From Carcharhinus longimanus (lineage: Eukaryota), in contig JASCQW010000119.1 in NCBI GenBank assembly GCA_030264375.1, forward strand, positions 10,523,346 through 10,587,345: a stretch of DNA of 64,000 nucleotides, given 5' to 3'. The notes below the pieces were generated by a model that was not told where the DNA came from, did no database searches, and worked only from the letters and a program-made list of their open reading frames with translations. Numbering within the stretch: position 1 is the stretch's first letter; each line of letters starts with the position of its first letter. The position numbers were made by a program, and so were the translations under genes. Shown here piece by piece: positions 3,933 to 61,756 of the stretch.

Positions 3933-3959
3933 ATGAGGAGGCACGAGAGAAAAGATCAG
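3933..3959 (+). CDS. Microexon 3 (27 nt), DEEAREKRS
   Basis: cttcttctgctttaacgtgtag|ATGAGGAGGCACGAGAGAAAAGATCAG|gtatca. Confidence 0.8.
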
Positions 3960-4671
3960 GTATCATTCTGTGATAAATGCGTCTTATGCTGCAAATGTGA
4001 ATTTTGCCCCTGTTTTTGAGGGGGAGTCATGTAACACAAGGGCTATTTATCCAAATGTTTATCATTATATGGTCGCCACATAGCTAGCAGAGTAAAGGGG
4101 GCGCATAGAGTTGCGTCATTTTGTTTGAATGGGTAGCGAATATGTTGTCAAAGGGCTCATATGAGATTAGGGAGCAGAAATAGCTGAAACTATTAAGACT
4201 ATTTAAATATTGCAATTTTGTTCTAGTTTGCAATGTAGGAAACAGAGGCGGCACGACAACATCAGAAAAAAAAACACAATGGTGCAATACATCTCTGGTG
4301 TCTGATGAATAAGCGTTCTCTCTGGCATTTAAAACATCCACATAGAATGACAGGTAGGTTTTCGTATTAGTGACCTGTTAGACAAGTAGCACGTGTGTTT
4401 CAGCGCATCTTTAACTGCTTAAAGTTGCAATCCTTTATTTTCAGATCACATATAATAAATTTGATTTGAGAAAACAATCATAGGACACGGCAAATATTCA
4501 GAAATCATTTTGCTAAACTCCATCTCCAAAATATTCTATCGCCCGGTTTCAACTCTAGTCTCACTTATCAACTTGTGTTTGTAAACGCGGTGTATTACAT
4601 TGAGAGGAAGGTACCCTGCTGAAATGTAAACAATTGTTTTGTTATTGTAGTTGTTGTTCTGTTCGGTACAG

Positions 4672-4707
4672 AAATAACGGGTTTACAGGAAAATATAAAA
4701 GATACAG
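4672..4707 (+). CDS. Microexon 4 (36 nt), EITGLQENIKDT; donor reads AT instead of GT
   Basis: ttgttctgttcggtacag|AAATAACGGGTTTACAGGAAAATATAAAAGATACAG|atatgc; fits the 36-nt family (I2, L5, I9, D11) and fills the expected slot. Confidence 0.6.
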
Positions 4708-5234
4708 ATATGCACACAACTGAAACTGGAGCGCAAAGACAAGTTGTTGTTTAGCTTCCAACATCGATCGCTTGTCTGACATTCAGTATTTTCACTAGTG
4801 ACGTATAAAGTACGAGTTTTCTATAATGTATGTTCTGGTCACAATGCTTTAATTAAAAATTAATACATTGTTTTCCTTGCAAAAATTCAAATCAGCTTCA
4901 ACGAACATAAAAATGAGAACAAAATCCTAAAATCTAAATGAAGTCATTTTTTTCCTGACTACACGCTTTGCAAAGTATAAATGCAATTGTAAAGTATACC
5001 ATAACTCCAACCAATAAAGGGCAGAACTCTTTATGCGGTAACTGTATTTAGTATCATCTTGACATTTCAAAAATAATAACGTTAAACCAGTTCTCAATTT
5101 GCATGACCTCTTGGCCAACCAACTCTACCGGTCAAGTATTTCAAAGCAGGCCTCATTTTGGATACCGGTAGTGCAAGTATCGTTCTCGAAACTCTTTGCG
5201 AATGCATTACGTCCAATTAAGATGAAGTTAACAT

Positions 5235-5470
5235 TTATGTATTAGTCACAAGTAAGGCTTACATTAATACTGCAATGAAGTTAATGAGGAATTTCCTGTA
5301 CAGGCCAATACACCTAACCAACACGTCTTTCAGACTGTGGGAGGAAACGGAACACCCGGAAGAGACCAGAGACGGACATAGGGAGAGCGTACAAATTCAG
5401 CAAGACAGCGATCCAAGCCGGGAATTGAACCCGGTGTTGTGAGGCAGCAGTGCTAACTACTGTGCCACCA
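5235..5470 (-). mobile_element. HE1-like SINE (same tail type as the 2315 copy)
   Basis: agtaaggcttacattaatactgcaatgaagtta...ggaggaaacggaacacccgg...gggaattgaaccc...gcagcagtgctaactactgtgccacc. Confidence 0.85.
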
Positions 5471-5874
5471 TCCCACCTACATGTAGCCACTGAATCGGGT
5501 TATGCCTTAAAAAAGTAACACACTGAGCAAAGTGTGCATGAATTGGGTATTTGGAATTTGTTAGAGCACATTGCATTTTTTTAATGTAAACTGTGCATCG
5601 AGACGTGCGTTAACATAATGCCATTCATAACATAGCAGCACCAGCATTTTGCATCACTGCAAAATATGTAAATATTTTTTGCACAAATGTAACTTTCATT
5701 TGTTTATGAGCAAATACATTTTGAAGCTATGTGTGCCTCTTCTGCCCTTCCAACTGATCATTTCGTTTTGGATCATGATTGTGCCCCATATTATGCAGTT
5801 CATTTAGTGTCTGAGAAATGTGGTAACTGTTTCACAGCATTGAAACATTATTTCTAAATTCTGCATCACATTGA

Positions 5875-6200
5875 AACATAGAAACCCTACAGTGCAGAAA
5901 GAGGCCATTTGGTCCATCGAGTCTGCACTGACCACAATTCCACTCAGGCCCTACTCCATGTGCCTAATAATCCCCCTAAACTATGCACCTCAGGACACAA
6001 AGGCAATTTGTGGCATTGCCAATCAACCTAACCCAAACATCTTTGAACTGTGGGAGGAAACCGGAACACCCGGAGAAAACACACGCAGACACGAGGAGAA
6101 TGTGCAAACTCCACATAGGCAGAGACCCAAGCTGGGAATCGAACCTTCGCCCCTGAAGCTGTGAAGCAGCAGTGCTAACCACTATGCTATCGTTCTGCCC
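5875..6200 (-). mobile_element. HE1-like SINE
   Basis: catagaaaccctacagtgcagaaagaggccatt...ggaggaaaccggaacacccgg...gggaatcgaacc...gcagcagtgctaaccact. Confidence 0.9.
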
Positions 6201-6454
6201 ACAAGTGGCATTTTCAGTTCGGTTATCTCTTTGTTTTTTCCCAGACCATGTGTTCACTTGAAACATTTCAGACAAGTTCAGACAAGAATTTGCAATCGTT
6301 ACACATGCCCTTCACACTGTTGTGGTGAGACAGATTCTTGTCTGCAAACCCACTAACTTGATAGGAACTGTGTTCAATATATTTTGAACAGCCCCATTGA
6401 TGCAGCTATTATAGGTTTCAATCAAAGAATGCATGGCCTTCTTCACACCTCACA

Positions 6455-6750
6455 GAATCATGCAATTACATAGTTCTTACAGTGCAGAAGGAGGCCACTC
6501 AACCTATCGAATCGGTACAGACCATAATCCCACCCAGGCCCTTTTCCCGCAACCCGCCATATTGACACTGCTAATCTTCCAGAAACTACGGTTAATTCAA
6601 CATTAAAAGTCAACACAATCCGCTCTTCTTTGCACAATGGCAGGAAACCGGAGCACCTCGGGGAGACTATACAGACTCGGCAACGATAGTGACATGACGG
6701 CGATGCGCGTGGGCGCTGTGAGGCAGCGGTGCTAACCAATATACCGCCTT
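6455..6750 (-). mobile_element. HE1-like SINE, degraded
   Basis: tacagtgcagaaggaggccactc...cataatcccacccaggcc...ggaaaccggagcacc...gtgaggcagcggtgctaacc. Confidence 0.8.
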
Positions 6751-6838
6751 GCATCAGCCATAATCTTATTGACTGGTGGGGCAGGCTCGAAGGGCTAGAT
6801 GGCCTACTCCTGCTCCTATTTCTTATGTTCTTATGTTG
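6750..6838 (+). mobile_element. CR1 LINE 3' tail
   Basis: atcagccataatcttattga...gcaggctcgaagggctagatggcctactcctgctcctatttcttatgttcttatgtt. Confidence 0.8.
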
Positions 6839-8302
6839 CTGACCCTTAACAGAAGCAGGATAGCCCTCTTGCTGGTTCACTGCTTTTTGAGGTTGTGTCC
6901 GTTCTACACATGGTAGACTGTTGTTGCATAGATTAGCTAGTGGATAATGTCTCGCAGATGTCCAGCATGAGATGTTAGGTCTGTGTCCATTGCTTTTATT
7001 TATCAAGATCGGTGGAAGAAATGAGATGTTTTCATCGTTCAGATCAGATCGGATTCTGATGTTATTGTTACCAAATCGAGAAGAGGAAGTGGGATCTTTA
7101 GCCGTTGATTGATTCTTGGCAGCTGTTTTGGATGCCCACGCACCACAACTAAACAAACTTTTCAGCATAGTGGAAATAATGACGAGGTGATTTGGGAGAC
7201 TTAAATCAGGGGCGAAGTAAAAGTAGCTAAATGATTAAAAAAAAGACTCCTCTGATTTTACAAGAAAGGCTATATTTGATAAAAAAAAANNNNNNNNNNN
7301 NNNNNNNNNNNNNNNNNNNNNNNNNNNNNNAAAATTTTAACCCCCCCCCCCCCCCCCGATATTACTGAAGAATTTTTACAGGTAGTTAATTCCTACCTTT
7401 TATGTTTATATGTTGGTGACCACCACCAAAATAGTATAAAACATCTGGAAGCACACGATGGATCAACCACACGAGTTAATTTCTCTGACATTTATATTGT
7501 TGTCATTTTATTGAATCTGTGAAATATCCTCTGGGAATGAACGAATACTCCTGCATTTTGAACTTTTTTTTTCTGTAACAATTTAAAAGCAATAATTCTT
7601 AATTCACATTGTCATCCATTGTTTTCCTTCCGAGTGCGCAATTCTTTAATAATCCTGTCACGCTTTTCTTCCCATCAAGTTCCCTTGCCCCTGAAAGTGT
7701 CAGAATATGAGTTCACATCGTACCCCTTCTGAGTTGTTGCTACTGAACTGCACCACATCATCGGGCTTGGTTACTCTAATTAGTATTCTGCTTCCTCCCG
7801 ATAATTCATTTCGTCCTGGAAACAAATATATTGCGCACAATGTTGCATGTTTTATGACGACGACAGACGAGCATCTTCCCTCCCCAACATCCAAATACTG
7901 CCCACAAAAGAAGTAAAGCTTTTGAATTACCGCCTTTTTAAAACTATGGCGCCTTATCCAGTGTCGTTGCATGGTAAATCTCGTCCGTAAAACACAGGTC
8001 ATCATTGTTATTCAATTTCAAAACAACCCCGGGCTGTGTAAAGACATTTGTTCTACAATATGTTGATGAAGTGTAAGTTGCATTCCCCGAATATTTTCTG
8101 GACAAAAGGTCTACATGTGAATTNNNNNNNNNNNNNNTACATTATCTCAAACATGAAGAAACTACTCTGAACTTTGGGGAACAATACACGGATTTTATAT
8201 TAAGTGAGTAAAACTTGTTTTTTTCTCATCTAATTGTCTCAACCTACTACAAAGTTTGGTATGGTTTACAAAATTTACAATCAGATTTATAATTTGAAAC
8301 AG

Positions 8303-8329
8303 AGGAACAGCTGCGAAAGAAAAACAATA
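8303..8329 (+). CDS. Microexon 5 (27 nt), EEQLRKKNN
   Basis: tttataatttgaaacag|AGGAACAGCTGCGAAAGAAAAACAATA|gtaagc. Confidence 0.8.
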
Positions 8330-10733
8330 GTAAGCAAGCATCCTACAACGAATTGCCTTGAGACATTTAAAATCGTTTGAATTCAGTCCATTTGGCATTG
8401 TCAGCACATTGTTTTAATGCTTTCCTCGCTGAAATCAATAGTATTGACAATTAGATTCTAGTCCTAAATGAAACTTCAGTCCCTCCCGTAAATATCTATG
8501 AACATGACTATTTGTTTTCGAACTTCAGTATAAACTCTGTGGGAGGCCTTTGCAAAGCTCGCGGGCCTACATGCGACTGCCAATAATGTCTTTGCATGTT
8601 AAGAACATCACTTAGTTAGAGCTATCCTTCTATTCCTCACCAAGTTTTAAGCAATTTAAACCAGACATAGTGAAATTACACAGCCTCATACCATTTGATT
8701 TACAAATAAATTCAGCCGACAGCAACATACCTGGAAATATTCGTTATAACAATACATAAAGCAACACTGTGCATAATCCATCCAGCTGCTCACCACGAGT
8801 TCCAGTAGCGCACCCCCCCTGCTCCGCCCCTTTGCCCACCACCCCACCCCCTCCACCTTTTACGCGCAATCACACCACTAAATTCCACCTCTCCTCAAAT
8901 TGCTGCAACGATCTCATTAGCTCTTCCAACATTAGGTTCGAACCGATGGTCACATTTGTGGTGTTCTGGGAGAGTGCTGAGGTGATAGTGGTGGTGGAAG
9001 GCGGGGGGAGTGAATTGGGAGGAGGATGCGTGCAGAAAGGCGCTGTTGATGGCGCGAGCAGATGACACCAGTTGTTCTGTGGATACTTAACTTGCAAGGA
9101 GAAAACGACATTTTTTAATGAAGCAGGCGATTCGAAAGACAACTGTGGGACATAAAGAATGTGGGGAGATGATAGAGCGCAGAAGCAGGAGCATGGTGTG
9201 AATTGCATGGCAATGATGTGTTGCATGCAATTGATTTTAACCTTTTTATATGAACGTGCAGTGAATCAAAATTAAACGTTCATTTCCAATGGTATTGCTT
9301 CCCGTCGATGTTGAGGTTCCCAGAAACCAACAAAAAATGATTTTCACCTCATTTTCAGCTTCCATTTCACTGCAGTATATGTTGGGAACAATTTCACAAT
9401 AGAAAGGGCACGCAAATTAATCCGGAGAATTGAAATGACCGGAACGGCACGCATTTCTCTGGCTAATTTGAACAAAATATCGAATGACAGGTTTAACGTT
9501 TAATTGATAGAGGAATTTGAAATACTGAAAGTTTGAAACGTGACAATCGACACAAAACTTTGCATTGCAGCAAACATCGAGAAATTGAAGATAGCAGCAA
9601 AGAGATATGCCAAAATCGTTAAAGCCCGAAATCAAGAACTTGAACCAGCTTATAATTAGACCGAGCCAGTTTCGGCACCATTTTCAGAAATGCTTTCTTC
9701 AAAATCACCTGAGCCTTCGAATGGTCCCTGAAGATTGCAATCCAGCTCCTCACCACCAACTCCAAATTGAACAAAATACAAACGTTATTGTCTGAACATG
9801 AATTTTATGTGATGCTTCATCCTTTCCTGGAATTTGTGCACAATGCCAATACTTATGAACTCCCGTGCATGAAGCTTAGGTAACGGTGCTAACAATCTCT
9901 GCTTTCCATTAATAAATTGCAGGGCATTGACTCCAGATAGACTGTCCAGTTACGCTATTTAGAACCAATTAACTATCAATTTTTCCAATATGTTTGCTTT
10001 CGCTCTGATTGACGGGAGCATTATGGTCTAACCATGGAGTTAAGCTTTCCCAGGTTAGGATGAGGGTGGCGTCCCGAAGGCCAAACATATAGAAGGCTGC
10101 TCGGACTATAATTAGTCCTGAGTTTGGAGGGAGTCGGTACAAGGCCAAGATGCGTCCTGAATGTTGGCCTCGTTGTCCAGCAGTCAGCAGTGCGGTTCAG
10201 TCTGAGGGTCTGATTTTTTTTTTAATTTGTGTGCGTTACTTTAGTCCATATTCGGGCAGAGACTGAGGTGACGATGAATTAGAAGTCGGGTCAGATCTGA
10301 CTGAGGGCATGTTTACAGGAGCTGAGGACGGAGGACATCTGTGAGTACGGAATGCACTGGCAGCATTATTCCCTTGGCAAAATAAGCGTTTGAACAGCAG
10401 CGACACCAGTGAACTCATAAGGGACGTCATGCCAATTCTACGACGACGATTGGCTTCGATTTGTAAATAAAGCAGAGGTGAAGAAGCGCATGTTTCGCAT
10501 GTTAAAAGGAACACAAATAAAACGAATGGAAATGTATTTCTTTATGCGGCGAATAGACGTGGCGAGCTATAGCCCACTGAATTTTAGAGGAGTGAATTAT
10601 AAAAAAAATCTACCGTTGATTTGTTATGTTCAATTTCTGTTTTTAAAAGATGCGTATCACTCGTTTTCTGATATCCTTCAACAACAGCGGTTGCCAATAT
10701 AACAGTATACATTGATTTTTTTTTATATATCAG

Positions 10734-10769
10734 AACGAACAAATGTGCAAGCATTACTTGCAGACTGTC
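10734..10769 (+). CDS. Microexon 6 (36 nt), KRTNVQALLADC
   Basis: tttttttttatatatcag|AACGAACAAATGTGCAAGCATTACTTGCAGACTGTC|gtaagt. Confidence 0.85.
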
Positions 10770-12859
10770 GTAAGTAGGAAATTTTAGATTTGCCTTACTT
10801 TTATTCTATTAGTACGGACGTGTTTGAGAGATTAGAAAGATTGATATTTAACTCCACAAGTAATTGCAAACTAGGTGGTCATGATACAGCTTGTGTTTCT
10901 GATTTTTTTTTGTGGGAAGCACTGTACAATATACGTTCATAAGGAAAATTACAATGTGGAGTTATTTTTCAAAGGGAAATGTCCTGGTGATCCAAACGGC
11001 TCTCGTTATGCAGAAGTTTGAGAATAGCACAGGAAAATGAATAATTAGGAAGTATATATATCATGAAGATGGCTGTTCAAACTACGATTGCCTCCGACCC
11101 CCACAACCACACTTTAATGTTGAACAAAAAAGTCAGATTGCGTACCAAGAATATTTTGCCCCAAAGAACCAAGCAGCATTTCTGAAGTGGTGTTTATTTA
11201 TGGGGACAATGCGGTGTTATGAAAGATTCTGAAGGAACCTGCATGGCTGCATTGCTGACAGCTGCTATTAAAACAAAGCTGGCAGTCAAATATCTGCAGG
11301 ATGACTTTAGCTGCAAATTCTTTCTGCGCAGCGATATACCATTGTTCTCGATTATCTTCACTGGTTCTATATTGAAGCTTTGCTCACTAACTTTGCGTCG
11401 CTTTAAAACATCCTGACCCGCACAATCGAATTACAGCAGCCCACATCTCTCCGAAATGTTCTAGGTGCACCACTTCTGCCGCTTTTAGCTGCAGTGCCAT
11501 CAGTGCCTTGGAATCCAAGCAATTGTTTCACTTTCCGAAAACTGTGCAAGTCTTTAGCTCGTTAACAGACATTACTGCCCAGACGTGAACCCGGATTTCG
11601 AAAGAGCTGCCCGGCGTCTGCCCCACATTCACAGAAATGGAGGTGGCGCCATTACTTCATTTATACCACACGTGATATCCATTGAGACATTCCCATGCCA
11701 GAAATTGTTCATGTCATTGCAAGTTGCTGCTTTCGAATTTGTGGTGTGAGTTTCTCCAGTCAACAGAGTAACTGACAAGCTGTCGCAGCAATTACCCGCG
11801 ACCCGGCTTCTGTTTTGTATTTGGGAATATTTTTTGTGTCCGTTTGCATTCCAAAATTACTTAAAGATCACGAAAATAACATTAATTTGACATGCAGCTG
11901 TGACCGAAATTATAGTGTCTTTTAGATTTTGGACGAAAACAGCTAGCATTATATTTGCGCACTTATTATTATTGATAGCAGTTACATATGATCATTGGGA
12001 ATAGCACCTTGAGTGGAACAGTCAGCTATTTAATTATGTGCCGCATTCAGGATCATTCTGAATTCTATATGTGAAATATTCCTCACTGCATTGTTCATAC
12101 AGTCGTAAATAATTTAACATTGTCTTAAGCTTTTCAGCGATAACATGAATCTGCAGATCTTCTGCATCATCACATAGTTCTGTTTAGGACTCTTCAAAAC
12201 ATGTAGAACGCTCCAAGTTAACGCATTGCTTATTATTTCCTGTGATAAATCGACTGCCACTTCTTCTGATCCTGTCTCTTATCTTCCTATACGTGAACCC
12301 TGTTAACAACGTAATTATCGTTAATAATTCTAAAAAAAGTTAAAATAAATGAATAACTTGTCGCCATAAATATAAAAATATATGAAGCCGTTCAACTGAA
12401 TTGCCTGGTACAATACACGTATCCGTGAAATCATCGAAATAAACATTCGTTGCACATCTCAAACCAAAACATACTATTCGTGGTGTCGCACAACTTTCGA
12501 GCCTTCCTTACTTTTTCTCAATGAGATCTCATAAAAATGCGGAAATACTTATGTAGTTTCATGTGTTAGACATCTGTATTCTAGGCTCTTACACCATTTG
12601 TTCCACTAAATATTTGCTGTGGATACGTGATGAACTTTGTAATCTCCTTGTAGGACAACCACGCAACATAGAGTAAAAATACTTCACGCCCATTAATCGA
12701 ATGAAGCACAGTTGTTTTTCGCATTAGCACTTTGCTTTGTAATTGGTATTGGAATATTTTGTCTCGAATACGTTCGTAGCATCCATGTGGTTCCATCAAT
12801 AATGCCAATATTCTGGCTACTACGAATATTAAGCACTATATTATTAGAACTGGAAGTGG

Positions 12860-13200
12860 ACGGCACGATAGCACAGTGGTTAGCACTGCTGCTTCCCAGC
12901 TCCAGGGACCTGGGTTCGATTCCCATCTCGGGTCACTGTCTGTGTGGAGTTTGCACATTCTCCTCGTGTCTGGTGGGTTTCCTCCGGCTGCTTTGTTTTC
13001 CTCTCATAGTCCAAAGATGTTTGGATTAGGTTGATTGGCCATGTTAAAATTGTCCCTTCGTGTACTAAGATGCTTAGGTTAGAGGGATTAGCGGGTAAAA
13101 TGTGTAGGGATATGGGGGTAGGGCCTGGGTGGGATTGTGGTCCCAGCAGACTCGATGAGCCGAAGGGTCTGTTTCTGCACTGTAGGATTCTATGATGATT
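12860..13200 (+). mobile_element. Near full-length HE1-like SINE
   Basis: A-box/B-box head ggcacgatagcacagtggttagcactgctgc...gggttcgattccc, and CR1-type tail ctgcactgtaggattctatgat. Confidence 0.92.
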
Positions 13201-13319
13201 CAAGTCGGTAGTATTGAAAAATTGACTCCTATTATAAAATAGAACGTAGAATTACATATATGAAAATTGCGTGGGAGTAAGTTCTACACGATGTCCCATC
13301 ATCTCCAATGTTTGCTTCA

Positions 13320-13780
13320 TCGTATAGTGCATTATCTCGTAATTACCGTGTGCTCTCCACATCCCTTGAATCTCTTGCATTTCATATATCTATCAAAGTC
13401 AGCCTTGAGTATACACAATGTAATGTTTATCAGCACATCATCTGAAAAAAAACACAATCCATCACTACTTTCAGACGAAATTGAAATCCCCCCATTCAAA
13501 TGATTCGTCGTGTTTTTAAGCGGCTGACAAATGTTCTAAATTCCAACAGGAAGGAAAACATATGTTTTGCACTTGCACTTTGCAACTTCAAACTTCGATG
13601 GAAAAATAATGCAAACAAGATAATATGCCGTAGGTTTCATTAAGAACACTTGTCGTTGTTATAAACGTCAAAGAGTATAATTCCAAATAGTTCAAAATGT
13701 TCTCCAAAAACAATTTATCATACCGAGGAATAAGCTTATTTCATGTTTTCTGAAATAATTCCAATGAAAGATTAACCANN
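13320..13780 (-). mobile_element. Highly degraded CR1 3' region
   Basis: ctccacatcccttgaatctctt...atctatcaaagtcagccttgagtata resembles the reverse complement of a CR1 3' end. Confidence 0.45.
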
Positions 13781-14134
13781 NNNNNNNNGGAAGATGGGAA
13801 AGAAATACGTTCAAAAATTCAAGTTGTTGAACAAATAGCACAACATGGTGTTATATTAATATGTTAGTATTGAAGAACGAAGACCTCAGGTTGGGAAGAG
13901 GACATTCATCTCCATGAAACTGATCTGCTATTCCAGAGAATTGAGCTCGCTCATGATGTGGCTGCAACTCAGGTTGTCTCACTTTCACCTGTAATCATTT
14001 CCTTCTTTGTCGATCAGAAGGCTTTCATGGTCTTNNNNNNNNNNNNNNNNNNNNNNNNNNNNNNNNNNNNNNNNNNNNNNNNNNNNNNNNNNNNNNNNNN
14101 NNNNNNNNNNNNNNNNNNNNNNNNNNNNNNNNNN

Positions 14135-14940
14135 CTTGGGCTTAGAAATAGCAGACGGAGGTTAATCCTCACAAATGCAAGGTGAAACATTTCGGAGGAT
14201 CAAAGTTAATTATGAATTTTAGTGTAACATTAACATCCAGAGGAATATGGGTACATATGTCCACAGTTGTCTAAATTTGGCAAAACATGCGCCTAGGGTG
14301 AAGAAGGAGGCATATGGCATGATTGCCTTCATGAGCCGAGGCATTTAGTAGAGGGTTGGAAAATCATGTTGCAGCTATATAAAATATTTATGTGAGCACG
14401 TTTGCAACATTGCGTTCATTTTTGGTCACCACACTACCGGAGGGAGTAGAAGCTTTGGTGACAGTGCAGCCAAAGTTCACAAGGATGTAGCCATATCTCG
14501 AGGGTGTTGGTTATCGGGAGAGATTCAATAAATTAGGGTTGTTGTCACTAAAAAAAAAGATGGAGACTGTTGGGAGACTAAATAGTGGTCTACAGAATTA
14601 TGAGAGGCATAGGTAGAGTGGAAAATCAAATACTTTTTCCAAAGGTGGAACGATCAATTACAAGTGGCACAAGTTCAGACTGAGGGGGGCAGTCCAAAGG
14701 AGATGTGTGGGAGAAAATTCTCACCCAGAGAGTGGGGGAGGGGGTGGTGCCTTGAAACACCTGCCAGATGAAGTGGTGGAAGCAGACACAACAGTAACAT
14801 TTAAGCGTCATCTTAATGGGCACATTAATAAGGAACAAATTGAGAGATGCTGATAGTATAAGGGAGTAGCTTTGTTTTAGTTCAGGCATCATGATCATCA
14901 CATGCTTCGGGGGATTTTTCCTGCGCTGTTGTTTTTATTT
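14135..14940 (+). mobile_element. Degraded CR1 LINE 3' fragment
   Basis: Remnants of the RT C-terminus (gtgaagaaggaggcatatggcatgattgccttcat; tggtcaccacactaccgg; ttctcacccagagagtgg). Confidence 0.8.
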
Positions 14941-17863: not shown

Positions 17864-17890
17864 ATGAACAGTTAAGCGAAATGATCAAAG
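17864..17890 (+). CDS. Microexon 7 (27 nt), HEQLSEMIK
   Basis: ttgcattttctaatag|ATGAACAGTTAAGCGAAATGATCAAAG|gtattg. Confidence 0.85.
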
Positions 17891-17904
17891 GTATTGGTTT
17901 TAAT

Positions 17905-17905
17905 G

Positions 17906-17938
<33 letters not shown>
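17905..17938. repeat. (TA)n microsatellite just downstream of the microexon 7 donor
   Basis: gtatatgtatatatatatatatatatatatatatt. Confidence 0.9.
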
Positions 17939-23687: not shown

Positions 23688-23714
23688 TATATATATTATA
23701 TATATATATATATA
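23688..23714. repeat. (TA)n microsatellite
   Basis: atatatatattatatatatatatatata. Confidence 0.85.
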
Positions 23715-49179: not shown

Positions 49180-49206
49180 AACAAAAAATTGGCAAAAAAG
49201 AGAAAG
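49180..49206 (+). CDS. Microexon 19 (27 nt), EQKIGKKEK
   Basis: tacttcttcacag|AACAAAAAATTGGCAAAAAAGAGAAAG|gtaatt. Confidence 0.88.
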
Positions 49207-49504
49207 GTAATTTTCTTCCCTTAATGTCAGATATACTCTTGTTCCCAGCGCCTTCTGTTGTTTTCCCTACTGTTGCTGTCAGTTCCAATTGAAACTATTA
49301 GATTCCACTAAATTTCCAGTATGTGGCGTGAGCACTTGTGTCCTACCTGTCTTCTCATAGAACCTATCATTATGGAAAAAAGGGCACTTTTAAAAGTCAT
49401 TCTCAAAGATGCTAATCATATTTCTTCTTCCCACTTGGAAATTTTCATTTAAAATTTTACTCGACTGCAAACAATTTGGACAGAGCGACAAAGATGAAGA
49501 AAGA

Positions 49505-50925: not shown

Positions 50926-51004
50926 TTGAAATTTTTAAGCATATTGTAAATTCAGACAAGGGAAAGCAGCTACAAAAATCTACATGACATGTTCGCCACC
51001 AGTT

Positions 51005-51240
51005 CAAACTCACTCACTCACTCACAAACACACAAAAGCAGGCACACAGACATGTACAAGTACCAAGCATACCTACACGGGCACATTCACACAAACATGC
51101 ACTGACAAAAACACAAACAAACACAGTCACGAACAGAAACGCACAATGATACACAACCAAGAGAAAGGGAAAGGCAGGACGCACAGACACTGACACACGG
51201 GTTCACTCATACTTGGACACGCAGGCAAACACCCACAAAG
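51005..51240. repeat. Degenerate (CA)-rich low-complexity tract
   Basis: cactcactcactcacaaacacacaaaagcaggcacacagac... Confidence 0.75.
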
Positions 51241-53289
51241 GCGCAGAAACATTTGATTAAATGTATCATTTGGTAACTCCTGTGCATCCACAGACTACCT
51301 GCTGTACGTATTGCAATACGCATTGGGTGCAATTCGAAAATTGACTTTTCTGTTCGTGAGCCAGGCAGGAGCATTAATGTGGCGCTACATTATTTCTGGT
51401 TGTAATTTTTACCATCTGTAAATGCATTGGGCCATAACTTGTAACATATCAGAAAACAATGATTGTTTGGAAGCAAAACACATGCCTACTGCTCACAACT
51501 CAATTTACCGAAGCTGATTGGGACTGCATTCGGTGAATTCCTGCACTCACCAGCGGAGTTCATCGGCATTGATTCGAGGATTTCATGCCACATTTTTTAC
51601 TAAACTAGCTGCTCTACAGCCTTGTAGTATAAAACGTGAAGTAAAAGCGACAAAGGAGAGAAGATATGCCCCAGGGTGGTTGGGAGGGCCACAAAGCGAA
51701 TGGGGGTCGCAGGGTACGCGGGGTTGTGGTATGGTTAAGACGTCAGGGAGTGATGAGCGGGATTATCGGTACCGGTTTCCCAAATTAGGCAGCGCGTGAT
51801 GCGTTGGATATCGCAGTTTTAAGTATGTGACAAATTGCAGACGGGGAATTCAAATGCGAGAGGTTGTTGTAGGCCTCAGGCGGATGGGGGTTGTTCAAGT
51901 TCTCGTGTGCTTGGTGTCGGTATGAGGCGTACGAATTTCAGGTTCTTTAGGGAGGACAGTAAAATCGCTGGCGAATGACGCATCGTCATGGCGGGGAATA
52001 TGAGTGTTTTTTTGGGATTTTGTGTTCTGTGTTGCATTCTGTGGGGACTGGGGAGGAGTTCCAGCTCGGTCGATGGACGAGTGTGGATGAGCATTGGGCC
52101 TGCATTTATCTGGATTTGGGGTAGCCCTGCTGTACGGTTGGGTAGTCGGTGATGCCATGGATTGTTGGCGATTTGGGGAAGACCATGGCAGAGTGGGCGG
52201 ATAGAGGAGGCCTTCAAGCAAGTGTGTGTATACGGGATTTGATTCCCCCAGAAAGGATTTTAACTCTCTGGGGAGCCTCATGTGTGGATGGGCTTGAACC
52301 GAAAATGCAATTGCGTTGATGTTAGAAGATGTTTCTTTCTTCCAAAGATTTCTGAATTACTATTCGAAATCCGGGTCAGAGAAATGTGCACTTAACGATA
52401 TGTTTAACTTCAGACGAGTCCCGTTGCAGCACATTCACTGCAAAAAAAAAGCTCGTCAGCTTACTGACCAACGGGGTTGATCCAAGAAATATTCGCATTT
52501 ACTGGTGGGGTATCAACAAAATTTGATGATGGGTAGCCAAGTTAGTAAGGGGCAAATTTGCCTTACATCGACGTTGCAACACCACGGAATCACAACATCT
52601 CTAAGATGTGAAAGTGGTGAGTTGAAACACTCGTTGGCCTGACTCCTCGCCTTCCTTGCCATAGGTCTCCCGGAGACGGGAGGTGGCGCAAGTTTGCTGG
52701 CAGTGGGATTCTCTGATCACAAACCTGTCAAAGGAAATTCCCACTGCTCTCACCCAACGTTGATAGGTATGCCTGGGTACGCTACCACATGACAGGAGAA
52801 TCCCATCGCCAAGGAGAACCAGAGAAGCGGTATTCCTATTTGTTCCATAGTTTCCAATTTTCGATGTAAGCAATTCCCTCTGTTCTACAATTAGTGCTCT
52901 TCTCCACAATGACAGAAGAGGTACTCTCCCACATTCCTCCTTAGAAGTGAACATTCTAATTCGTGGAAAAATGTTTCCAAATATCGTTGTGCCCAATCCA
53001 ATGTTTTCTCACCTTTTTCTATTGTGTGACGCTGAGAATCGTATAATAGATTTCTAACCAGAGCCGCGTATCATTTCAGCACAAACCCCTTAGGTTTGTA
53101 CTTACAATTCTCTCAATAAAACCCAACATACACTGTCATATTAGCTATTTTCTCCTAGCTCACTTGCATACTGGTTATCTACACACACATAATTAGTAAG
53201 GGTGTTCAGGAACAGAGAAAATTGAGTTATGTGCAATATAACCATTACGTTACATTCCTTGACCATGTGTTTAGTATGAAAGTGTGTTG

Positions 53290-54500
53290 CCACGCACTTC
53301 TCGACATTGAATATTTTCCACTATTTACCTGCCACCTTCTCTCACGTGTTGAAGTTTTCCACTTCCCTCCGCACAATTTACAATGGTTTTAACCTTGGTA
53401 TCGTTATAAGGTTCGGAAATTGACACTTGCATACCAAGATCTAGATGATTATTGATTAGGAAATGGCAGGAAAAGCAAGAAATCCAATTCCGAACACACT
53501 ATGCACATTAACCCAGTCCGAAATAAAAATATTGACATGTATTCTCTATTTCTGACTTCACAAACAATTTTGCATTCATGTCGTGACTGTTCATTTAGTT
53601 CCACATGTGTTTACCTCTCGAAATGCATGTATAACAAATCATCAGCAAAACCTTAATGCGTAATTTCCCTTCAAGATTCAAAATGTCCCGAAACTTTTAT
53701 GCGTGAGGTTTCACATTTCTGTACCCATACTTCCTTTTCCTGTTCAGCAGAGCATTTTTTCCCCATGTGATTAACAGTTCAAACGGAATGCTTGATTGGA
53801 AATATTCTCACCATTCGGATTGAATTGACAAGTCTGTAATCATGCTCTTCAAATTTGAACATAAATATCTAATGTTTGACATTCGCCGAACCTGTCGTTG
53901 AATCTGGGGAAGACTAAAAAAAAATGGCCCGCATTTTCAATTTGAAGTGTTTCAGTTTCGTTTGATGCATTTTATCCAGCCGCCCTGCCCTGTCAATTTT
54001 ATGTCCCGACAGTCTACCTAGCAGTTCTGCTTATAAGTGTTGAAGATATCAACTGATATTGATTCCCACTCACTCACCATAGGCTGGCAAACCGTTGTCT
54101 ATGCGGCAAAAATACATGCATTAAAAACAAAATCAGCTAAGCCATGCACTCTTCACGATTTTACTCACGTTAAGTCGTTTTTCTGACCTATGTATCTTTT
54201 GCCGTCCATTTTAATAATTATACATATTTAGGAAACATCAGAATTTTGTTGGTTTCCAAGTTAGCTGATAAACCATCGTCGTTTCTCAATAGCCGTTTCT
54301 CAGATGGACATGAATCTTCCACGTTCGTCTCAATTCTCATTTACATTGTTTAGCTGTTACTTATCAAAACATCTGTTTAATTCCTTATCGAAACTGATAT
54401 TTTTTTTTCCCTTAGGAATCCCTAAAATTGTTTTAACTACATTCCATTTTTAAGGGAAGATGCTGTGACTCTGCTGGAACTATTTGATTTATGGAGATTT
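53290..54500 (-). mobile_element. Very old CR1 LINE remnant
   Basis: gtatcgttataaggttcggaaattgacacttgcataccaagatctagatgatt resembles the reverse-complement FADDT region; the rest is only weakly recognisable. Confidence 0.45.
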
Positions 54501-57500
54501 CTCGTTGTTCTGATTTTTTTTCTCCACAGTTTGTTCCAAACTTTCACAGATCTATTATTGTTACAATACTGCAAATATTTTCGCAATTAATTGTGTTATA
54601 CTAGATCGTTTTTATGTCGATTTCTATCGCTACCCCAACCTTATGGCATACAGATCACCTTCTACAAACTGTTTCCACAAAAGGAGGACTTTTGCCCACT
54701 TCAGTTGCAGCAACCATACTCTGCAACGCATTAATTTTTGGGCTACATGCTGGCCATGTATTGCTGAAGAATGATTTCGTTGACAATGAATTTCTGTCCC
54801 TCCTCATCTTTGAGTAAATAAAAACTCTGACTGAATTTGGGTATTTATAGTGCCTAGTATGACTACTGTTTAACATGTATAATCTCTGCCTTTCTGTGCA
54901 ATTTCCTTGCACACCGCACCTCACCTTGCTCTCCGCCCCAATCCTAACACCACCACCACCACACAGCCGGGTATTGCATTCTTCCCACGATTTTCGGCTG
55001 ATAGAATATTCCAAAAATATAACAGCATCACTATTTTCCTTAACTGCTGTCGTCAGTACGTAAAAATTTACCTCCTCAATACATTAAGCAGAAATATCAC
55101 AGGACTGGATGTGTTCCTTTTGTGGATGAAAATAGATTGGCAGAGGAATAGATTGCATAATTTGTTTTCGCATATATAACAGTTTCCTCCAGTGTGGAAA
55201 GTCACAGACGNNNNNNNNNNCTAAAGGATAGACAACAAAGAGATGTTCGCCAAAAAAGCTTTGCAAAATAAATTACTAATCCGGAAACTGCGTGTGTTCT
55301 TGCACATTACTAGGTTCTGTTGTTTTTTTTTCATGGCTGGAAAACCATTTCAGTACTTTATCCGGATTGCTTTTCAACAGATGGTCCAGCTTTCGAATTG
55401 AGTGAAACCTGAGGAATGTTTTGGATCATGACAATCATCATCCATTGAAAGATCGGCAGGTTAATAGGTACTACAAAAAAACAAAAAAAAATGCACTTCA
55501 ACATTTTTTTAAAGTTTCTTGATGACCATGCACGACCTCGACCTCCCCCTGACAAGCGTTGTTAATATGATTGGCTCACGTCCAGATATGCAGAGTGGCA
55601 AAATATAATCTTCCACCTGGGCAACGGACAAGCTTACAACTTTTGAAACAGGTAAATGTTGACCTTGTGTTCACCACATGTGGACACTATACCATCGTTT
55701 TAATGGGCAGATACACTTGGAGCTGTTCAACGACTGAAACAAATACCTATTCTCTTTCAAGTTTTCAGCAGTTCTAACTCTTCTTCCATCTTTTGTCTCG
55801 TGGCATAGGACATTTTTTTATCTGGGATTGAAAAAGGCAAGAGTGACATGGAATTCTGCACGTAGTTCATTGTTGAACTGGTGCAGATAACTTTTAACAA
55901 CATGCTTATTCACCGTCGCGTGCTTGATACCGCCCCATTATAATCGTACTCTGTTGAACGTGATAGCACGATCAAACTCCACCAAATTGCATTCATCAAT
56001 GTGAGGCCGTTTTGTTTTTGCTTCTTGACTGAATAAAACATATGGAAACCCAACGCATAAAAGTAAGGTATGGACTCTCTGCTGTACATCTGAAAATAAA
56101 ATTCAGACGGTTTACCAGCTGGTGCTTGGGTACACTCCGAATGCCGACTTCGAGGTATGTTCAGTATAGATGGACGCAGAAATTCCTGCGTCAGGATTCA
56201 TCTTAATTTGATTAACAGTAAGCGCACCAATGGAAAAGTATGTTCGATGCTTGCCTCGCTCAGAGAGAACACGCCAGAAGTCGAATCTCATGTATGCTCT
56301 GAACTGCCAGGTGGCATGTCGCTGTTTCAGGCTTAAACGATTTGAAGTGTTCTACGTCAGCCTTGGCCTCACTTTTCACACAAATGCATTTCTTCTCAAA
56401 ATTTCACCTTCTTATTTCACTATGACAGACAAGATCCATGAATTAGCAATGATCGAATAATGTGGCCTAACACACCTAAAACATTCCTGTAACTTAATAT
56501 TTCTTCTTCGAAAATCCAGATTCGACGAATGGATGGCACGCATCTGGGCAGCAACTTTAAGTTCCTGAATGTTGATCGCACTAGTCGTGGTTATTTATGA
56601 GTCATGCGAGTTTTCCAGAATCTTCTTAACAATTGGAATGCCTTTAGCCAACCGCTGATTACATCATATTTATGAACATACCTTTTAAAATTGGTCCAAA
56701 ATAACAATGTTTGAAAGCTTTTTGCATAATTCCGCCCGAAATATGGTAATCAATTTAACAAATTTTCATACGTTTCTACGAAATTTTAATCTCTGAACAA
56801 TCTTCGAGGATTTTGTGGATTGGTGATTTTGGACAAAAACATTTTATTCCATAAGGAAACTTTCTTTTGGAACCACTGGCGGGCCAAATTCGATATCAAC
56901 TTAAGCTTCACGCACCCTTTATCTCGTATTCTTTTCAACTTGGTAAAAACAATAAAAACTCTCCACGAATTCAACCTACTGTTCACTTCCCTCCTCGAAT
57001 TTATCTACCATAGTGGAACATCGCCATTGTGCTGGTAATTTGAAACTTTGTCGAAGAAGCTAAGATAAAAGCTGAATAATTGTATTGTGCAAACTCGTAT
57101 TGCCAGTGCGAAAATCGAAAAAAAAATCTAGATGTGTTTTTTTCCATTTTCTTTTGATTGACGAAAGAAAAATGTGGTGACTTGAAATCACAAATATGTA
57201 GTTGAATGCATTGTTTATAATATATGTAATTGAATAACGAATTTTAACAGTAATCTAACAGAAAATCAACCGAACACTACGAACTATGAGGAAAGCAACA
57301 ATTGCAAAAGAGCTCTTGTTTCCAGGTCCCTACTTGTCAGACAGAAAACCTCAAAGCCACACATGCCCAGAAGCATCAACAGAAACCAGCAATACACATA
57401 GGATAAAACTCTTAAAATCGTATTCTGCGCTCTTAGACAGCGTGGAACATCTATACTTAAGTGCTATTTAACGCTTTCAAAATAATGCACACCCAGGTAT

Positions 57501-58315
57501 TCCACACGGCGATTCTATATTGGTATCTATGTTGGGTTAGCTAAAATCACATCCGGCACCTCACTTCCACAGTTCAACATAATACCACGCAAAGAATCCT
57601 GGGCCAGTTCCGTTCAGGGATAAATATTAAGGATGTAATATATCAATGAACGAATCCCAGTGGTACAAAGGAACTGGCGACTTCCCTTAAAACATATTTC
57701 CACGCGAACATTTATCTTGCTTATACTGCTATAACTGCCTGCACTTCCAAGCAGCACTGAGAAGAATTTAGTGAGCGCAATGTTTGATGTTTTGCTCGCT
57801 GCCTTTTGTTTTAATGGTGCTCCTTATATTTAGATTGACGTCCCACGGAATCTTACCAAAATCTTTGATAATAAGGTATATGGGCCATTGATTCTTTTAC
57901 AATCCCGAGAAGAATGACCTGCAGCCGCTCCATGACATCTTTCACCCTAACAGCATTGTGGCAACATACCATCATTACGGGTGCACGATCGGTATTTCAC
58001 TGTATCGCTCCTTGATCCCTTCTGTACATCTGAGATACCCCTGGTGCCAGTCACAAGGCTCTAAGGGCACTGATCTCAAAAGTAAACTCACCACCTTTCA
58101 AAGTAGAAAACCAATGTGTCAATGCGGGCCCAAGGATTCCTCCACAAAATGTGCCGTCATGTTGGTATGACTGACCCCCAACATATTCCGTTTTTGCCAT
58201 CTTATGCGGCAGTCTTCTTCAACAAATTTTCACGAGGAACTATGTTACTGCCCATCTAGTAATTCCTTAGATAGCAACACTTTTCTAATTACCTTTAATT
58301 ACATCTTTTTTCTAG

Positions 58316-58351
58316 CGTTCAAGACATTGGAAAGGGACGCAAGTGACAAAG
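58316..58351 (+). CDS. Microexon 20 (36 nt), AFKTLERDASDK
   Basis: catcttttttctag|CGTTCAAGACATTGGAAAGGGACGCAAGTGACAAAG|gtgtgt. Confidence 0.82.
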
Positions 58352-58669
58352 GTGTGTCTGCAATGTTGATGGTTACCGTTAATTTGAATAACAATGTACA
58401 AAATTATGCTGTGATCCCGTATGACTCTGCCTTCCATCTAAACAGGAGGCAGAATACGCCGATATCTGCCGTCATCTAATCGTGACATTCACACATCAAC
58501 AGTGGTCAGCAGACCTGCCCTGACTCAAGTAAAATCTTGGAATTTCTTGGATAACCCCCATAATGTAAATATTGGTCCAGTTGAAATCACAGTTTTTTAA
58601 CAGTGCTTAAGTGATTAATCTCATTGTCACTGCCCGTCACTTGAAATGATCCTGAGACTGTTTCTCGTT

Positions 58670-58850
58670 ATTTTCCAAACTGAGGAGAGATTGGGTAAAC
58701 TACGGTTGGTCTCCCTGGAAAGACGGAGAATAAGGAGAGACCTAATAGAGGTGTATAAAATTATGAGGGGTATGGATAGGGTAAACAGTGGAAAACTATT
58801 CCCAGGTCGGAGGTGAAAAACACGAGGGGTCACAGATTGTTCTTTGTTCT
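58670..58850 (+). mobile_element. CR1 LINE 3' fragment
   Basis: Encodes EERLGKLRLVSLERRRIRRDLIEVYKIMRGMDRV. Confidence 0.9.
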
Positions 58851-58907
58851 TTGTTATTTGATCCTGTGAGATCAGATATGAATTGGCAGCGAAATTGAAA
58901 CAGGGAG

Positions 58908-59225
58908 GGGCGGCATGGTAGCAGTGCTGCCTCACATGTCCAGGGACCCGAGTTCGATTCCCGGCTTACGTGAAGAATGCGTGTTGTCCCCGTGTCTGCG
59001 TGGGTTTCCTCCGGGTGGTCCGGTTTCCTCTCACATTTTGAACTTGCACGGCTTAGGGTGATTGGTCTTTGTTGGTGTCCCGCAGTGTCCCGGGATGCGT
59101 TGGTTAAAGGAATTACCTGTGTAAATATTTCGGATTATAAGGATAGGACCTGGGTGGGATTGTTGTCGGTGTAGACTCGATGGACTGAATGGCCTCCTGC
59201 TGCAATGTAGGGTTTCTATGATTAT
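58908..59225 (+). mobile_element. HE1-like SINE
   Basis: gggcggcatggtagcagtgctgcctcac...gagttcgattcccggctt...ggcctcctgctgcaatgtagggtttctatgatt. Confidence 0.9.
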
Positions 59226-59759
59226 CTTTAGAACCTGCACTGGTTTGATCAAACCTTAAAAGCCTTTCAACTGGCGCAGAAATGATTCAAGATTATCCTC
59301 AAACGAAAATTGAATTTGCTTAAGTCTGGAAAGAAGTATTGCAATTTTTCCAATGGACCTAGTAAGGACTAAGGAAACATACAAGAAAAACAACTATTTT
59401 CACGACGTAATTCGCTAGACTAAATAATTGGCAACCGGTCACAATGATACTCAATGTAGCTATTGTTCAGCGAATCCTATGAAAATTGGTAGTATGAAAT
59501 TAAGATAACCGTAAAATTGCACTGATGTTATTCAATATTATGAAATTTTAGTTATAGTCTTTCTGAATGACTTTGTATGTCCACCTCTGGGCACTACAGT
59601 TTGGAAATGATGGAAATGTTTTTTAGGCGTGGGAGGAGTGATGAATTGGATTAATTGTGCATTTGTGAAAATTTATTCAAGTGGATAAACGATAGAAGCT
59701 GGCTCTCTCCACGTCAGGATAGAAAGGATTACATGGAAAGTTAATAGATATTCTAATCA

Positions 59760-60105
59760 TATAATATTTAGTGCAGAAGAACACATTTGACCCTTCCAGT
59801 CTGCACCGACTCTCTGAGAGAGTATCTTACCCAGGGCTTCTCCTCTGCCTTATGCATGAAAACCCATACATTTATCATGGCTAATCCCCTTAATGTACAC
59901 ATGCTGGGAAATTAAGGGGCAATTGTGCATGTCCAATCCACTTAACTTGCGCACTGTGGACTGTAGGAGGAATTTGGAACACCCCGAGGACACCCACAGA
60001 AGCAGAGAGAGAATGTGTAAGCTCTACACCGTTATCAGACGCCGGATTTAATTCCAGTCCCAGCCCAGCCGTTGTGAGGCATTAGTATTGGCCACGGTGC
60101 CACCG
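59760..60105 (-). mobile_element. Degraded HE1-like SINE
   Basis: agtgcagaagaacacatttgaccc...ccaatccacttaacttgc...gtgaggcattagtattggccacggtgccaccgt. Confidence 0.8.
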
Positions 60106-60512
60106 TATCTCATCAAAAAAAAAATTTTATAGATCCCGTCATTGGAATCTGTTTCAACAGGCAGGAACATCATTCTGTGGCTACCAAAAAAAATTACCAA
60201 TGTGTAAGTGAAATATGCAAAGGAAATTGTTTTACTTTCAACGGCGTAACTGTTACAATCTGTAAAGTGCGCTCGCTAAATAATGTGCAACTCTTCTCTG
60301 TCGTATCTTTGCAGGGAAATTTCAATGTATAATCGAAAGGAAGGATAAGGCATTTCAGTTGGAGAAATAACGGAGCTTGAGAACTAGGTTCACAATATCT
60401 GGGGCCCAATTAGCTCACATTGTACTCAATATTCCTTAAGCGATTTGAATATTCTTGCCGATATGAGTGTAGTGCGCAGTTTATTTAGTTGTTTATTTCC
60501 TTCACCTATCAG

Positions 60513-60539
60513 AAAAAGAATTGGGGAACAAGGAAAAAG
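60513..60539 (+). CDS. Microexon 21 (27 nt), EKELGNKEK
   Basis: tttccttcacctatcag|AAAAAGAATTGGGGAACAAGGAAAAAG|gtaatg. Confidence 0.88.
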
Positions 60540-61720
60540 GTAATGACGTGAACACGGGTGTTTTATTTGAAACAGCCTCGTCTTATATCAAATTATATCA
60601 AATGTCAGTATTTTTTTTCCAAAGATATGTCATAAGAGAAACGTGGAATACAATTTTACAAAATTGCACGCTTTTGTAATGCATCTAAATCCAACTTAAT
60701 ATGCTGCAAACTGGGAATAAAGGCGTGTTTCTATGTCAGGTGAAGTGACTCGACCAAAATGTAACTTTGAAAATGTAAGGCCGTGGAGCAAAAACAAATT
60801 GTGACGTTAATTAGCTGCTGTGCTATTCGGTGGCATCTTCACTGAACGCATCCTGATGAAGATGATGTTCCGTGATAATTGTCAATGAGCAACGTCACGG
60901 CTGTTTAGACATGACACTGAGCATTTAATAAAGACTTCCAGTCTAGAAATTTAAATATTATAAGTGCATTTTTCCATTCATATACTATTTTTCGAAGAAT
61001 TCTGAGAAAAGTAACATATTTTCATTTTTTTTTCTGTTTATGGTATGTGCCTTTCATTGCAGTTACACTAAAATCATATCCCGCCCTTGCGACAAAAAAA
61101 AGCGAATTAAGAGGACCACGGAATATAGTGCAGATAAGGTGGAGTTTACACGGTGTGTTTAGAGGTAATCACTGTAAACATTAACTTTGCATTAAATGTT
61201 GATACCGCATCAGAAATGTTGATAGTCACAGCATTTTACAGCATGAAGATAGGTTATTCGGCCCAGCTTGTACATGCCACATTTTTAACCATTAAGGTAA
61301 TTCCAGTTTCACACGATTGTCCCATAACCGTCCATGCTCATCTTAGTCTGCTGACTATTTTCATATATACATATATACATATATATGTATATATAAAAAT
61401 ATAATTTATGTAAATATTAAGAGTGCTTGATCCCCGTAGCTCTACATGTATATATTCTGTTACGTCAGTTTATTTTTTGTTCCTGTGAAGTTGAGTACAC
61501 AGATCTAGTTCATTTTTTTTCGTCAGTGTGCCGGTGGTTACTTATTTTCGGTACCTCAGTGTAATTGTTCAGAGCTTGTTACATCACGGTCCGACAACAG
61601 AGGCTGGAGTCAAGTGCAGACACTTCCACGTTCGTCCTGTGTCACGGCTTTGTAGATTCAGGACATTTACTGCAGATTGCCCATGATATTCCCGATGCCA
61701 AATTTGCTATTCTTTCACAG

Positions 61721-61756
61721 AACTGGAGAAACACAAAAACAATCTTCAAGACTGCC
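61721..61756 (+). CDS. Microexon 22 (36 nt), ELEKHKNNLQDC
   Basis: ctattctttcacag|AACTGGAGAAACACAAAAACAATCTTCAAGACTGCC|gtgagt. Confidence 0.9.

What the first reader, a model, noticed from the sequence alone, without database searches (positions are those of the whole stretch)
3933..61756. Reading frame is per exon but heptad register is per exon pair: a possible splice-tunable molecular ruler
Every exon is symmetrical (phase 1, multiple of 3), so any exon can be skipped without a frameshift. Neither 9 aa nor 12 aa is a multiple of 7; only the pair (21 aa) is. Skipping adjacent pairs would shorten the rod in three-heptad steps, while skipping a single exon would break the heptad register by 2 residues. 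The strict alternation over ten units suggests selection on register. Inference: alternative splicing could generate a ladder of rod lengths, or kinked isoforms, from one locus.
Basis: inference. Interest (0 to 1): 0.7.

Follow-up and report, generated by a model that had tools for sequence, protein, structure and literature searches.

The report
Giant shark micro-exon coiled-coil B30.2 gene
This window is a slice of an enormous shark gene whose roughly 200 tiny exons build a very long protein rod ending in an immune-type recognition domain; the exons mostly alternate in size, but the evidence does not show that splicing uses them as a tuned ruler.

Summary
The exons are real: 22 phase-1 micro-exons of 27 or 36 nt lie in the window, and one 36+27 pair encodes three heptads (period 3.50). 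The window is only about 8% of the array. About 210 copies run on one strand for at least 817 kb and end in a B30.2/SPRY exon 94 kb past the window; the 5' end was not reached. That B30.2 falls in a clade whose named members are all cartilaginous fish (100/100 support; 7 paralogs in this genome), apart from TRIM39-like and butyrophilin domains. Alternation is strong but not strict (131 of 177 junctions; 53 register shifts). Inactivated exons are lost singly, not in register-keeping pairs (2 of 20 runs, chance 1.6), and 0 of 5 in-frame isoform differences in homologs equal 21 residues. Block duplication of a two-exon module explains the alternation. The pairwise splice-ruler is not supported. 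What remains is an apparently undescribed family of giant coiled-coil–B30.2 genes, built like butyrophilin and chicken BG tails. Expression is untested.

The parts
2694..2720 (+).
3933..3959 (+). 27-nt micro-exon (S)
4672..4707 (+). 36-nt exon-like copy (L class) with AT in place of the GT donor: probably inactive
   Evidence: base not verified by reads
8303..8329 (+). 27-nt micro-exon (S); start of the longest in-register run
10734..10769 (+). 36-nt micro-exon (L)
17864..17890 (+). 27-nt micro-exon (S)
20231..20266 (+). 36-nt micro-exon (L)
23422..23448 (+). 27-nt micro-exon (S)
25674..25709 (+). 36-nt micro-exon (L)
26401..26427 (+). 27-nt micro-exon (S)
33546..33581 (+). 36-nt micro-exon (L)
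34924..34950 (+). 27-nt micro-exon (S)
37316..37351 (+). 36-nt micro-exon (L)
39641..39667 (+). 27-nt micro-exon (S) with a GC donor
40864..40899 (+). 36-nt micro-exon (L)
45372..45398 (+). 27-nt micro-exon (S)
46568..46603 (+). 36-nt micro-exon (L)
49180..49206 (+). 27-nt micro-exon (S)
58316..58351 (+). 36-nt micro-exon (L), divergent
60513..60539 (+). 27-nt micro-exon (S)
61721..61756 (+). 36-nt micro-exon (L)
63963..63989 (+).
1..64000 (+). The whole window lies inside the gene. The array continues at least 666 kb upstream and 87 kb downstream; the terminal phase-1 B30.2/SPRY exon lies outside the window at about G000:C119:10,681,078-10,681,598 (L011), preceded by a 27-nt exon 7 kb before it
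   Evidence: (Pfam SPRY E=5.6e-17)

Best explanation
The window is the middle of a giant cartilaginous-fish gene for a coiled-coil rod capped by a C-terminal B30.2 (PRY-SPRY) domain. SHOWN: about 210 phase-1 micro-exons over at least 817 kb; a 36+27-nt module that encodes three heptads; tandem block duplications with homologous introns; single-exon inactivation; a terminal B30.2 of a distinct clade; the same 12/9-residue blocks in chimaera, skate and electric-ray proteins. INFERRED: the rod grew by unequal crossing-over of blocks, which by itself keeps the alternation; the reading frame is under selection but heptad register only weakly and locally, so single exons can die or be skipped at the price of a local stutter or kink. 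INFERRED BY ANALOGY (butyrophilin and BG tails, TRIM coiled coils): the protein self-associates through a rod of up to about 1,900 residues and holds its B30.2 ligand-binding heads at the far end, as a cytoplasmic scaffold or innate-immune sensor. Rod length is set mainly by heritable exon gain and loss, plus register-blind skipping.
For: Array and controls. B30.2. Heptad pattern. Synonymous spread at conserved Leu (CTG 22, TTG 15, CTA 14, TTA 6 at S position 3). Stops in splice-intact copies 2 versus 9.2 expected under neutral decay, P=0.005. Duplicated blocks: 23 pairs with 65-93% flank identity; 17 older pairs have exon identity 0.81 versus flank 0.75. Dead runs not register-neutral. Tree: 13 of 42 rows form the clade at 100/100. 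Paralog arrays upstream of other B30.2 exons. Homolog parse: chimaera rod scores 242 versus 74+-14 shuffled. Six of six homolog models carry no RING, B-box or Ig match.
Against: No transcript of this gene was seen and the 5' end was not found. The 753-kb core span holds 76 kb of N, with 25 gaps of 600 bases or more, enough to hide another B30.2 or first exon, so it may be more than one gene. The stop-depletion test is biased in favour of function because models were trained on stop-free copies. Recent duplicate exons show little constraint (85-100% exon versus 80-96% flank identity). The window's 21-exon run (p=0.025) and 74% alternation are compatible with real selection on register. Function rests on analogy only.
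Confidence: 0.6

Rival explanations
1. One reading: regulated skipping of adjacent 27+36 pairs yields a ladder of rods in three-heptad steps, a splice-tuned ruler.
For: Symmetric exons; the pair equals 21 residues; longest in-register run sits in the window, p=0.025; only 1 of 64 copies is dead in the 3' region against 20 of 124 in the 5' region, p=0.002. An Atlas cluster of long rod+SPRY proteins is named 'isoform X51' (score 0.79, a lead only).
Against: 53 register shifts of 177 junctions; dead copies not paired; 0 of 5 homolog isoform differences are 21 residues, though only one lies inside a heptad rod and all are predicted models; paired exons are 0.7-9 kb apart in the window with no sign of coupling; the next array uses 36-27-27 units.
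Confidence: 0.1
2. A butyrophilin/BG-type membrane receptor with an extreme cytoplasmic tail; its Ig and transmembrane exons lie upstream of the region read or are too divergent to detect.
For: Same layout of small heptad exons before B30.2 (PMC6790196, PMC8813856 passages); a true butyrophilin in this genome has IgV-IgC-TM-27 nt-B30.2; the 5' end was not reached.
Against: No C2-set_3 match on C119 between 6 and 11.5 Mb (57 of 57 candidates scored); no V-set match there among 150 of 928 scored; no Ig or TM exon recognised in the 52 kb before the next array; no Ig match in six homolog models; B30.2 outside the butyrophilin branches.
Confidence: 0.12
3. The array is not one gene: either several tandem genes whose ends sit in assembly gaps, or one multi-megabase unit with alternative terminal B30.2 exons.
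For: Exon sequence type changes across a 6.2-kb gap at about -500 kb; micro-exons resume 52 kb after the B30.2 exon with no recognisable 5' domain between; 25 large gaps.
Against: Only one B30.2 match between 9.09 and 11.29 Mb (150 of 156 candidates scored); a single chimaera model already has a 1,495-residue rod.
Confidence: 0.1
4. A decaying pseudogene or partly abandoned array.
For: 21 of 201 copies have lost a splice dinucleotide, 20 of them in the 5' part; two exons would create junction stops; weak constraint in recent duplicates.
Against: Open B30.2 exon of about 173 codons; stops 2 versus 9.2 expected; 63 of 64 copies splice-intact in the 3' 227 kb.
Confidence: 0.08

Closest known systems
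Chicken BG (butyrophilin family)
   Same: Long coiled-coil tail from many tiny split-codon exons; exon number varies between genes; alternative splicing changes tail length; the true heptad spans two exons (PMC4046983, PMC5938342 passages).
   Different: BG uses 21-nt exons (13-36 per gene), so each exon keeps register; it has IgV and TM and no B30.2. Here the module is 36+27 nt, about 200 exons, with B30.2 and no Ig found.
Butyrophilins (BTN/BTNL)
   Same: Short heptad exons followed by a terminal B30.2 exon; single-heptad skipping is reported for macaque BTN3A (PMC6790196 passages). The shark BTN gene has a 27-nt phase-1 exon before B30.2.
   Different: BTNs have only a few heptad exons plus IgV-IgC-TM; this B30.2 is in a separate clade.
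Class IV TRIM proteins (RING-B-box-coiled coil-B30.2)
   Same: Coiled coil plus C-terminal B30.2; clustered, fast-evolving multigene family (PMC3137616 passages). Databases label homologs 'TRIM39-like', 'TRIM69-like', 'A33-like'.
   Different: No RING or B-box in six homolog models, no B-box near the locus; the rod is micro-exon built and roughly ten times longer.
Unstudied cartilaginous-fish models XP_042192744.1 (Callorhinchus, 1,697 aa), XP_055510696.1 (Leucoraja), XP_069775384.1 and XP_069797409.1 (Narcine), XP_038668997.1 (Scyliorhinus)
   Same: Same B30.2 clade for the four genes represented in the tree; 12/9-residue blocks clear in the chimaera and skate models, weaker in the ray models, not above shuffle in the catshark model.
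   Different: Automatic names only; rods from about 100 to about 1,500 residues; orthology to this gene not established (about 35-44% B30.2 identity).
Nebulin-type rulers and Schistosoma micro-exon genes (recalled; one search gave one listing only)
   Same: Symmetric small exons that allow length variation by skipping.
   Different: No sequence relation; no isoform ladder shown here.

Membership tests
Butyrophilin (BTN/BTNL) | Extracellular IgV and IgC domains | tested here: inconclusive
   None found on C119 6-11.5 Mb or in six homolog models, but the 5' end was not reached.
Butyrophilin (BTN/BTNL) | Transmembrane exon | tested here: inconclusive
   No credible TM exon in the regions scanned; hydrophobic N-termini of two homolog models look like read-in from acceptor tracts (inference).
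Butyrophilin (BTN/BTNL) | Small heptad exons before a terminal B30.2 exon | tested here: met
Butyrophilin (BTN/BTNL) | B30.2 groups with butyrophilin B30.2 domains | tested here: not met
   Separate 13-row clade, 100/100, in a 42-row tree of similarity-picked rows.
Chicken BG | 21-nt single-heptad exons | tested here: not met
   93x27, 76x36, 6x30, 2x42, 1x33 nt among 178 live copies; a generic scan of 13-90 nt showed no 21-nt class.
Chicken BG | No B30.2 domain | tested here: not met
   B30.2 exon present.
Class IV TRIM | RING and B-box | tested here: not met
   No match in six homolog models; no B-box on C119 6-11.5 Mb among 150 of 277 candidates scored. 5' end of this gene unseen.
Class IV TRIM | C-terminal B30.2/SPRY | tested here: met
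Splice-tuned molecular ruler | Isoform ladder in register-keeping steps | not testable with these tools
   No transcript data; the proxies (dead-exon pairing, homolog isoforms) go against it.

The most novel reading that the evidence does not exclude
An undescribed cartilaginous-fish family of giant coiled-coil-B30.2 genes is expressed and uses combinatorial skipping of about 200 micro-exons to make a large repertoire of rods of different length and kink pattern, spacing B30.2 recognition heads over tens to hundreds of nanometres: immune-sensor diversification by geometry rather than by binding-site sequence.
Probability: 0.22. Interest if true: 0.85.

Novelty: new variant of a known kind. Interest (0 to 1): 0.55.

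Why it matters
Gene finders miss 27-36-nt exons, so this family shows up in databases as bare B30.2 fragments or mislabelled TRIM, A33 or nuclear-pore proteins. If expressed, it is among the most exon-rich genes known, occupies several megabases on two chromosomes of this shark, and is shared with chimaeras. It would be a second, independent case (after chicken BG) of a butyrophilin/TRIM-related gene growing a huge micro-exon rod. Because register here needs two exons, the array is a natural test of how much heptad register is constrained: about 200 units with visible duplications and losses. The specific pairwise-ruler idea adds little at present.

Tried and rejected
Sequencing runs for the B30.2 exon: no RNA holder listed. 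No read-level evidence was obtained, which leaves expression and the AT donor at 4708 open. Protein search with the B30.2 exon against longer proteins: 0 of 468 candidates at E<=1e-20; the profile search of longer proteins was crowded by TRIMs and did not list even the chimaera homolog among its best 120. The 5' end was sought over 670 kb upstream and not found; scans for Ig, RING, B-box, TM, signal-peptide and Met-Ser first exons gave nothing credible. A secreted or anchored form, suggested by hydrophobic N-termini of two homolog models, was set aside because the same pattern arises by reading into an acceptor tract at +210,322. A named 'CC-B30.2' class was not found: in the one paper of six that I opened the term was part of RBCC-B30.2. 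The one-clade test on my 12 pre-named rows was rejected (p-AU 0.008) because an unlabelled own paralog (L043) nests inside; the 13-row branch has 100/100 support. One copy was mis-recalled as 33 nt and corrected. Dead copies under 18 bits were dropped; one search repeats the tests at 15 bits with the same result. Earlier findings of this scan: none. No structure or complex prediction was run.
Full report
OBSERVATION. Splice-site and profile scans find 22 exon-like copies in the window, 12 of 27 nt (S) and 10 of 36 nt (L), all on the + strand, phase 1 at both ends, without stops. They are not chance: with the splice dinucleotides masked, 158 splice-intact hits score 8 bits or more on the forward strand of 864 kb and 0 on the reverse. 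Across 76 L and 93 S exons the hydrophobic positions are L1, L4, L8, L11 and S3, with Lys or Thr at S6, giving the spacing 3-4-3-4-3-4 over 21 residues. For the 20 live exons from 8303 to 65,884 the best period is 3.50, a/d positions are 70% hydrophobic against 7% elsewhere, and 0 of 5,000 exon-order shuffles reach that power. Two details are wrong: the L copy at 4672 has AT where the donor GT should be, and another S exon lies at 2694, so the spliceable order at the start is S-S-S. The AT base was not checked against reads.

WHAT IT IS. The window is G000:C119:10,523,346-10,587,345. Reading 670 kb upstream and 200 kb downstream shows that the array runs from at least -666,181 to +150,589 in window numbering. 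A curated set for -595 kb to +151 kb has 201 copies: 178 live (93x27, 76x36, 6x30, 2x42, 1x33 nt; 1,848 residues), 21 with a lost splice dinucleotide and 2 with a stop; about ten more lie further upstream. It ends in a phase-1 B30.2 exon at about +157.7 kb (Pfam SPRY, E=5.6e-17). Five close paralog B30.2 exons lie on C119 at 6.33, 8.53, 9.02, 9.09 and 11.29 Mb and one on C81. The same 27- and 36-nt motifs lie upstream of the C119 paralogs on the matching strand, and in an array on C81. The closest database proteins are cartilaginous-fish models with a coiled coil and B30.2 only, or bare B30.2 fragments. In a 42-row tree these and the seven own paralogs form one branch at 100/100, apart from TRIM39-like and butyrophilin domains (rows were picked by similarity, midpoint root). 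The 12- and 9-residue blocks can be parsed out of the 1,697-residue chimaera model (score 242 versus 74+-14 shuffled) and the skate model, more weakly the ray models, and not the catshark model. The module therefore predates the chimaera-shark split (over 400 million years, recalled).

IS ALTERNATION STRICT, AND WHY DOES IT EXIST? Among live exons 131 of 177 junctions alternate (null 88+-7, p<0.0001). Of the 46 same-class junctions, 24 are clean, 13 have a dead copy between, 8 span a gap and 1 hides a likely exon. Counting odd-length exons there are 53 register shifts; the window run of 21 exons is the longest, the next is 11, permutation p=0.025. Self-comparison finds 23 pairs of exon-bearing blocks with 65-93% flank identity: the array grows by block duplication, which keeps alternation with no need for selection (inference). 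If register were enforced, dead exons should come in L+S pairs. They do not: 2 of 20 dead runs are multiples of seven residues (null 1.6, p=0.51), and 3 of 27 at a looser cut-off (null 3.1). Frame is protected: 2 stops in splice-intact copies against 9.2 expected (P=0.005, biased in favour by training on open copies), and conserved leucines use varied codons. Decay is regional: 20 of 124 copies dead in the 5' part, 1 of 64 in the 3' part (p=0.002).

SPLICING. No transcript of this gene was seen. Annotated isoforms of three homologous genes differ by in-frame blocks of 6 and 9 residues (Narcine gene 1), 9 (Narcine gene 2), and 9 and 7 (Callorhinchus): 0 of 5 equal 21 and 1 of 5 is a multiple of 7. 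Only one lies within a heptad rod and all are predicted models, so this is weak. Atlas clusters of 1,277-1,802-residue SPRY proteins resemble the chimaera rod protein, one named 'isoform X51'; this is a lead for heavy splicing, homology untested. Inserting 2 residues breaks the helix in trimers and 5 must be spread over two heptads (PMC4786415, passages), so kinks are physically plausible, but many are already fixed in the genome.

MECHANISM. Most likely (0.6): a self-associating rod, up to about 1,900 residues or near 280 nm if all live exons are used (0.15 nm per residue, recalled), that presents B30.2 heads, working like a butyrophilin/BG tail or TRIM coiled coil in innate sensing or cytoskeletal scaffolding. 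Anatomy, heptads, duplication and single-exon loss are shown; expression, oligomer state and function are inferred. Rivals: pairwise ruler 0.10, butyrophilin with unseen Ig-TM exons 0.12, several genes or alternative terminal exons 0.10, pseudogene 0.08.

KNOWN SYSTEMS. Chicken BG tails are built from 13-36 exons of 21 nt, vary in number and are shortened by alternative splicing (PMC4046983 and PMC5938342, passages). Butyrophilins have a few heptad exons before B30.2 (PMC6790196 and PMC8813856, passages; PMC12841164, first of four parts of the text). A true butyrophilin in this genome has IgV, IgC, TM, one detected 27-nt exon and B30.2, which suggests a shared origin of the 27-nt phase-1 exon (inference). 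Membership of BG and TRIM fails on tested features; butyrophilin membership fails on B30.2 placement and is open on the N-terminus.

NOVELTY. Literature searches listed no paper describing this family; the library omits most subscription journals, I read listings and passages only, and I saw no supplements, where shark genome gene-family tables could mention it.

Noticed in passing
window numbering +210,404 to +253,168 (L016-L020): A second micro-exon array starts 52 kb after the B30.2 exon, with 36-27-27 and 33-27 units, and no recognisable 5' domain exon in between; it may belong to the paralog ending at C119:11.29 Mb or be an alternative 3' path.
   Followed up: partly
G000:C81:92.05-93.91 Mb, minus strand (L100-L103): Same 36/27-nt exon types inside the TRIM/butyrophilin cluster, pattern hits spread over about 1.85 Mb, with near-identical recent copies.
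   Followed up: partly
G000:C81:100,453,269-100,461,023 (L099): An ordinary butyrophilin gene: IgV, IgC, TM, 27-nt exon, B30.2.
   Followed up: yes
window numbering -281,128 and +129,335: Two GC-donor copies end in T and would form a stop at the next junction; they may be unused or poison exons. Two other splice-intact copies hold internal stops (-230,265, -211,810).
   Followed up: no
window numbering -666,181, -414,889, -261,424: Tandem acceptors three bases apart allow 27- or 24-nt forms, a one-residue register shift.
   Followed up: no
window numbering +80,384-93,553 and +95,647-113,247: A recent duplication (90-93% identity) carrying four exons per copy, including the 42-nt ones.
   Followed up: yes
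window 47,586-47,847: An 81-nt repeat on both sides of a 100-N gap, probably an unmerged assembly overlap.
   Followed up: no
window 16,600-17,030; 47,000-48,400 (minus strand); 49,500-50,900; 27,650-28,000: Broken LINE fragments that look like RTE and CR1 elements (labels recalled, from translations and the sequence); many SINE-like copies.
   Followed up: no
window numbering -60,701 to -60,204 (L030), also near -40,900 and -557,700: Intronic fragments that resemble the transmembrane part of a retroviral envelope gene (label recalled). Observed only.
   Followed up: no
homolog models P0157, P0155, P0153: Ray and chimaera models begin Met-Ser-Glu/Asp, which would fit a very short first coding exon and a soluble protein; no convincing such exon was found here.
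   Followed up: partly
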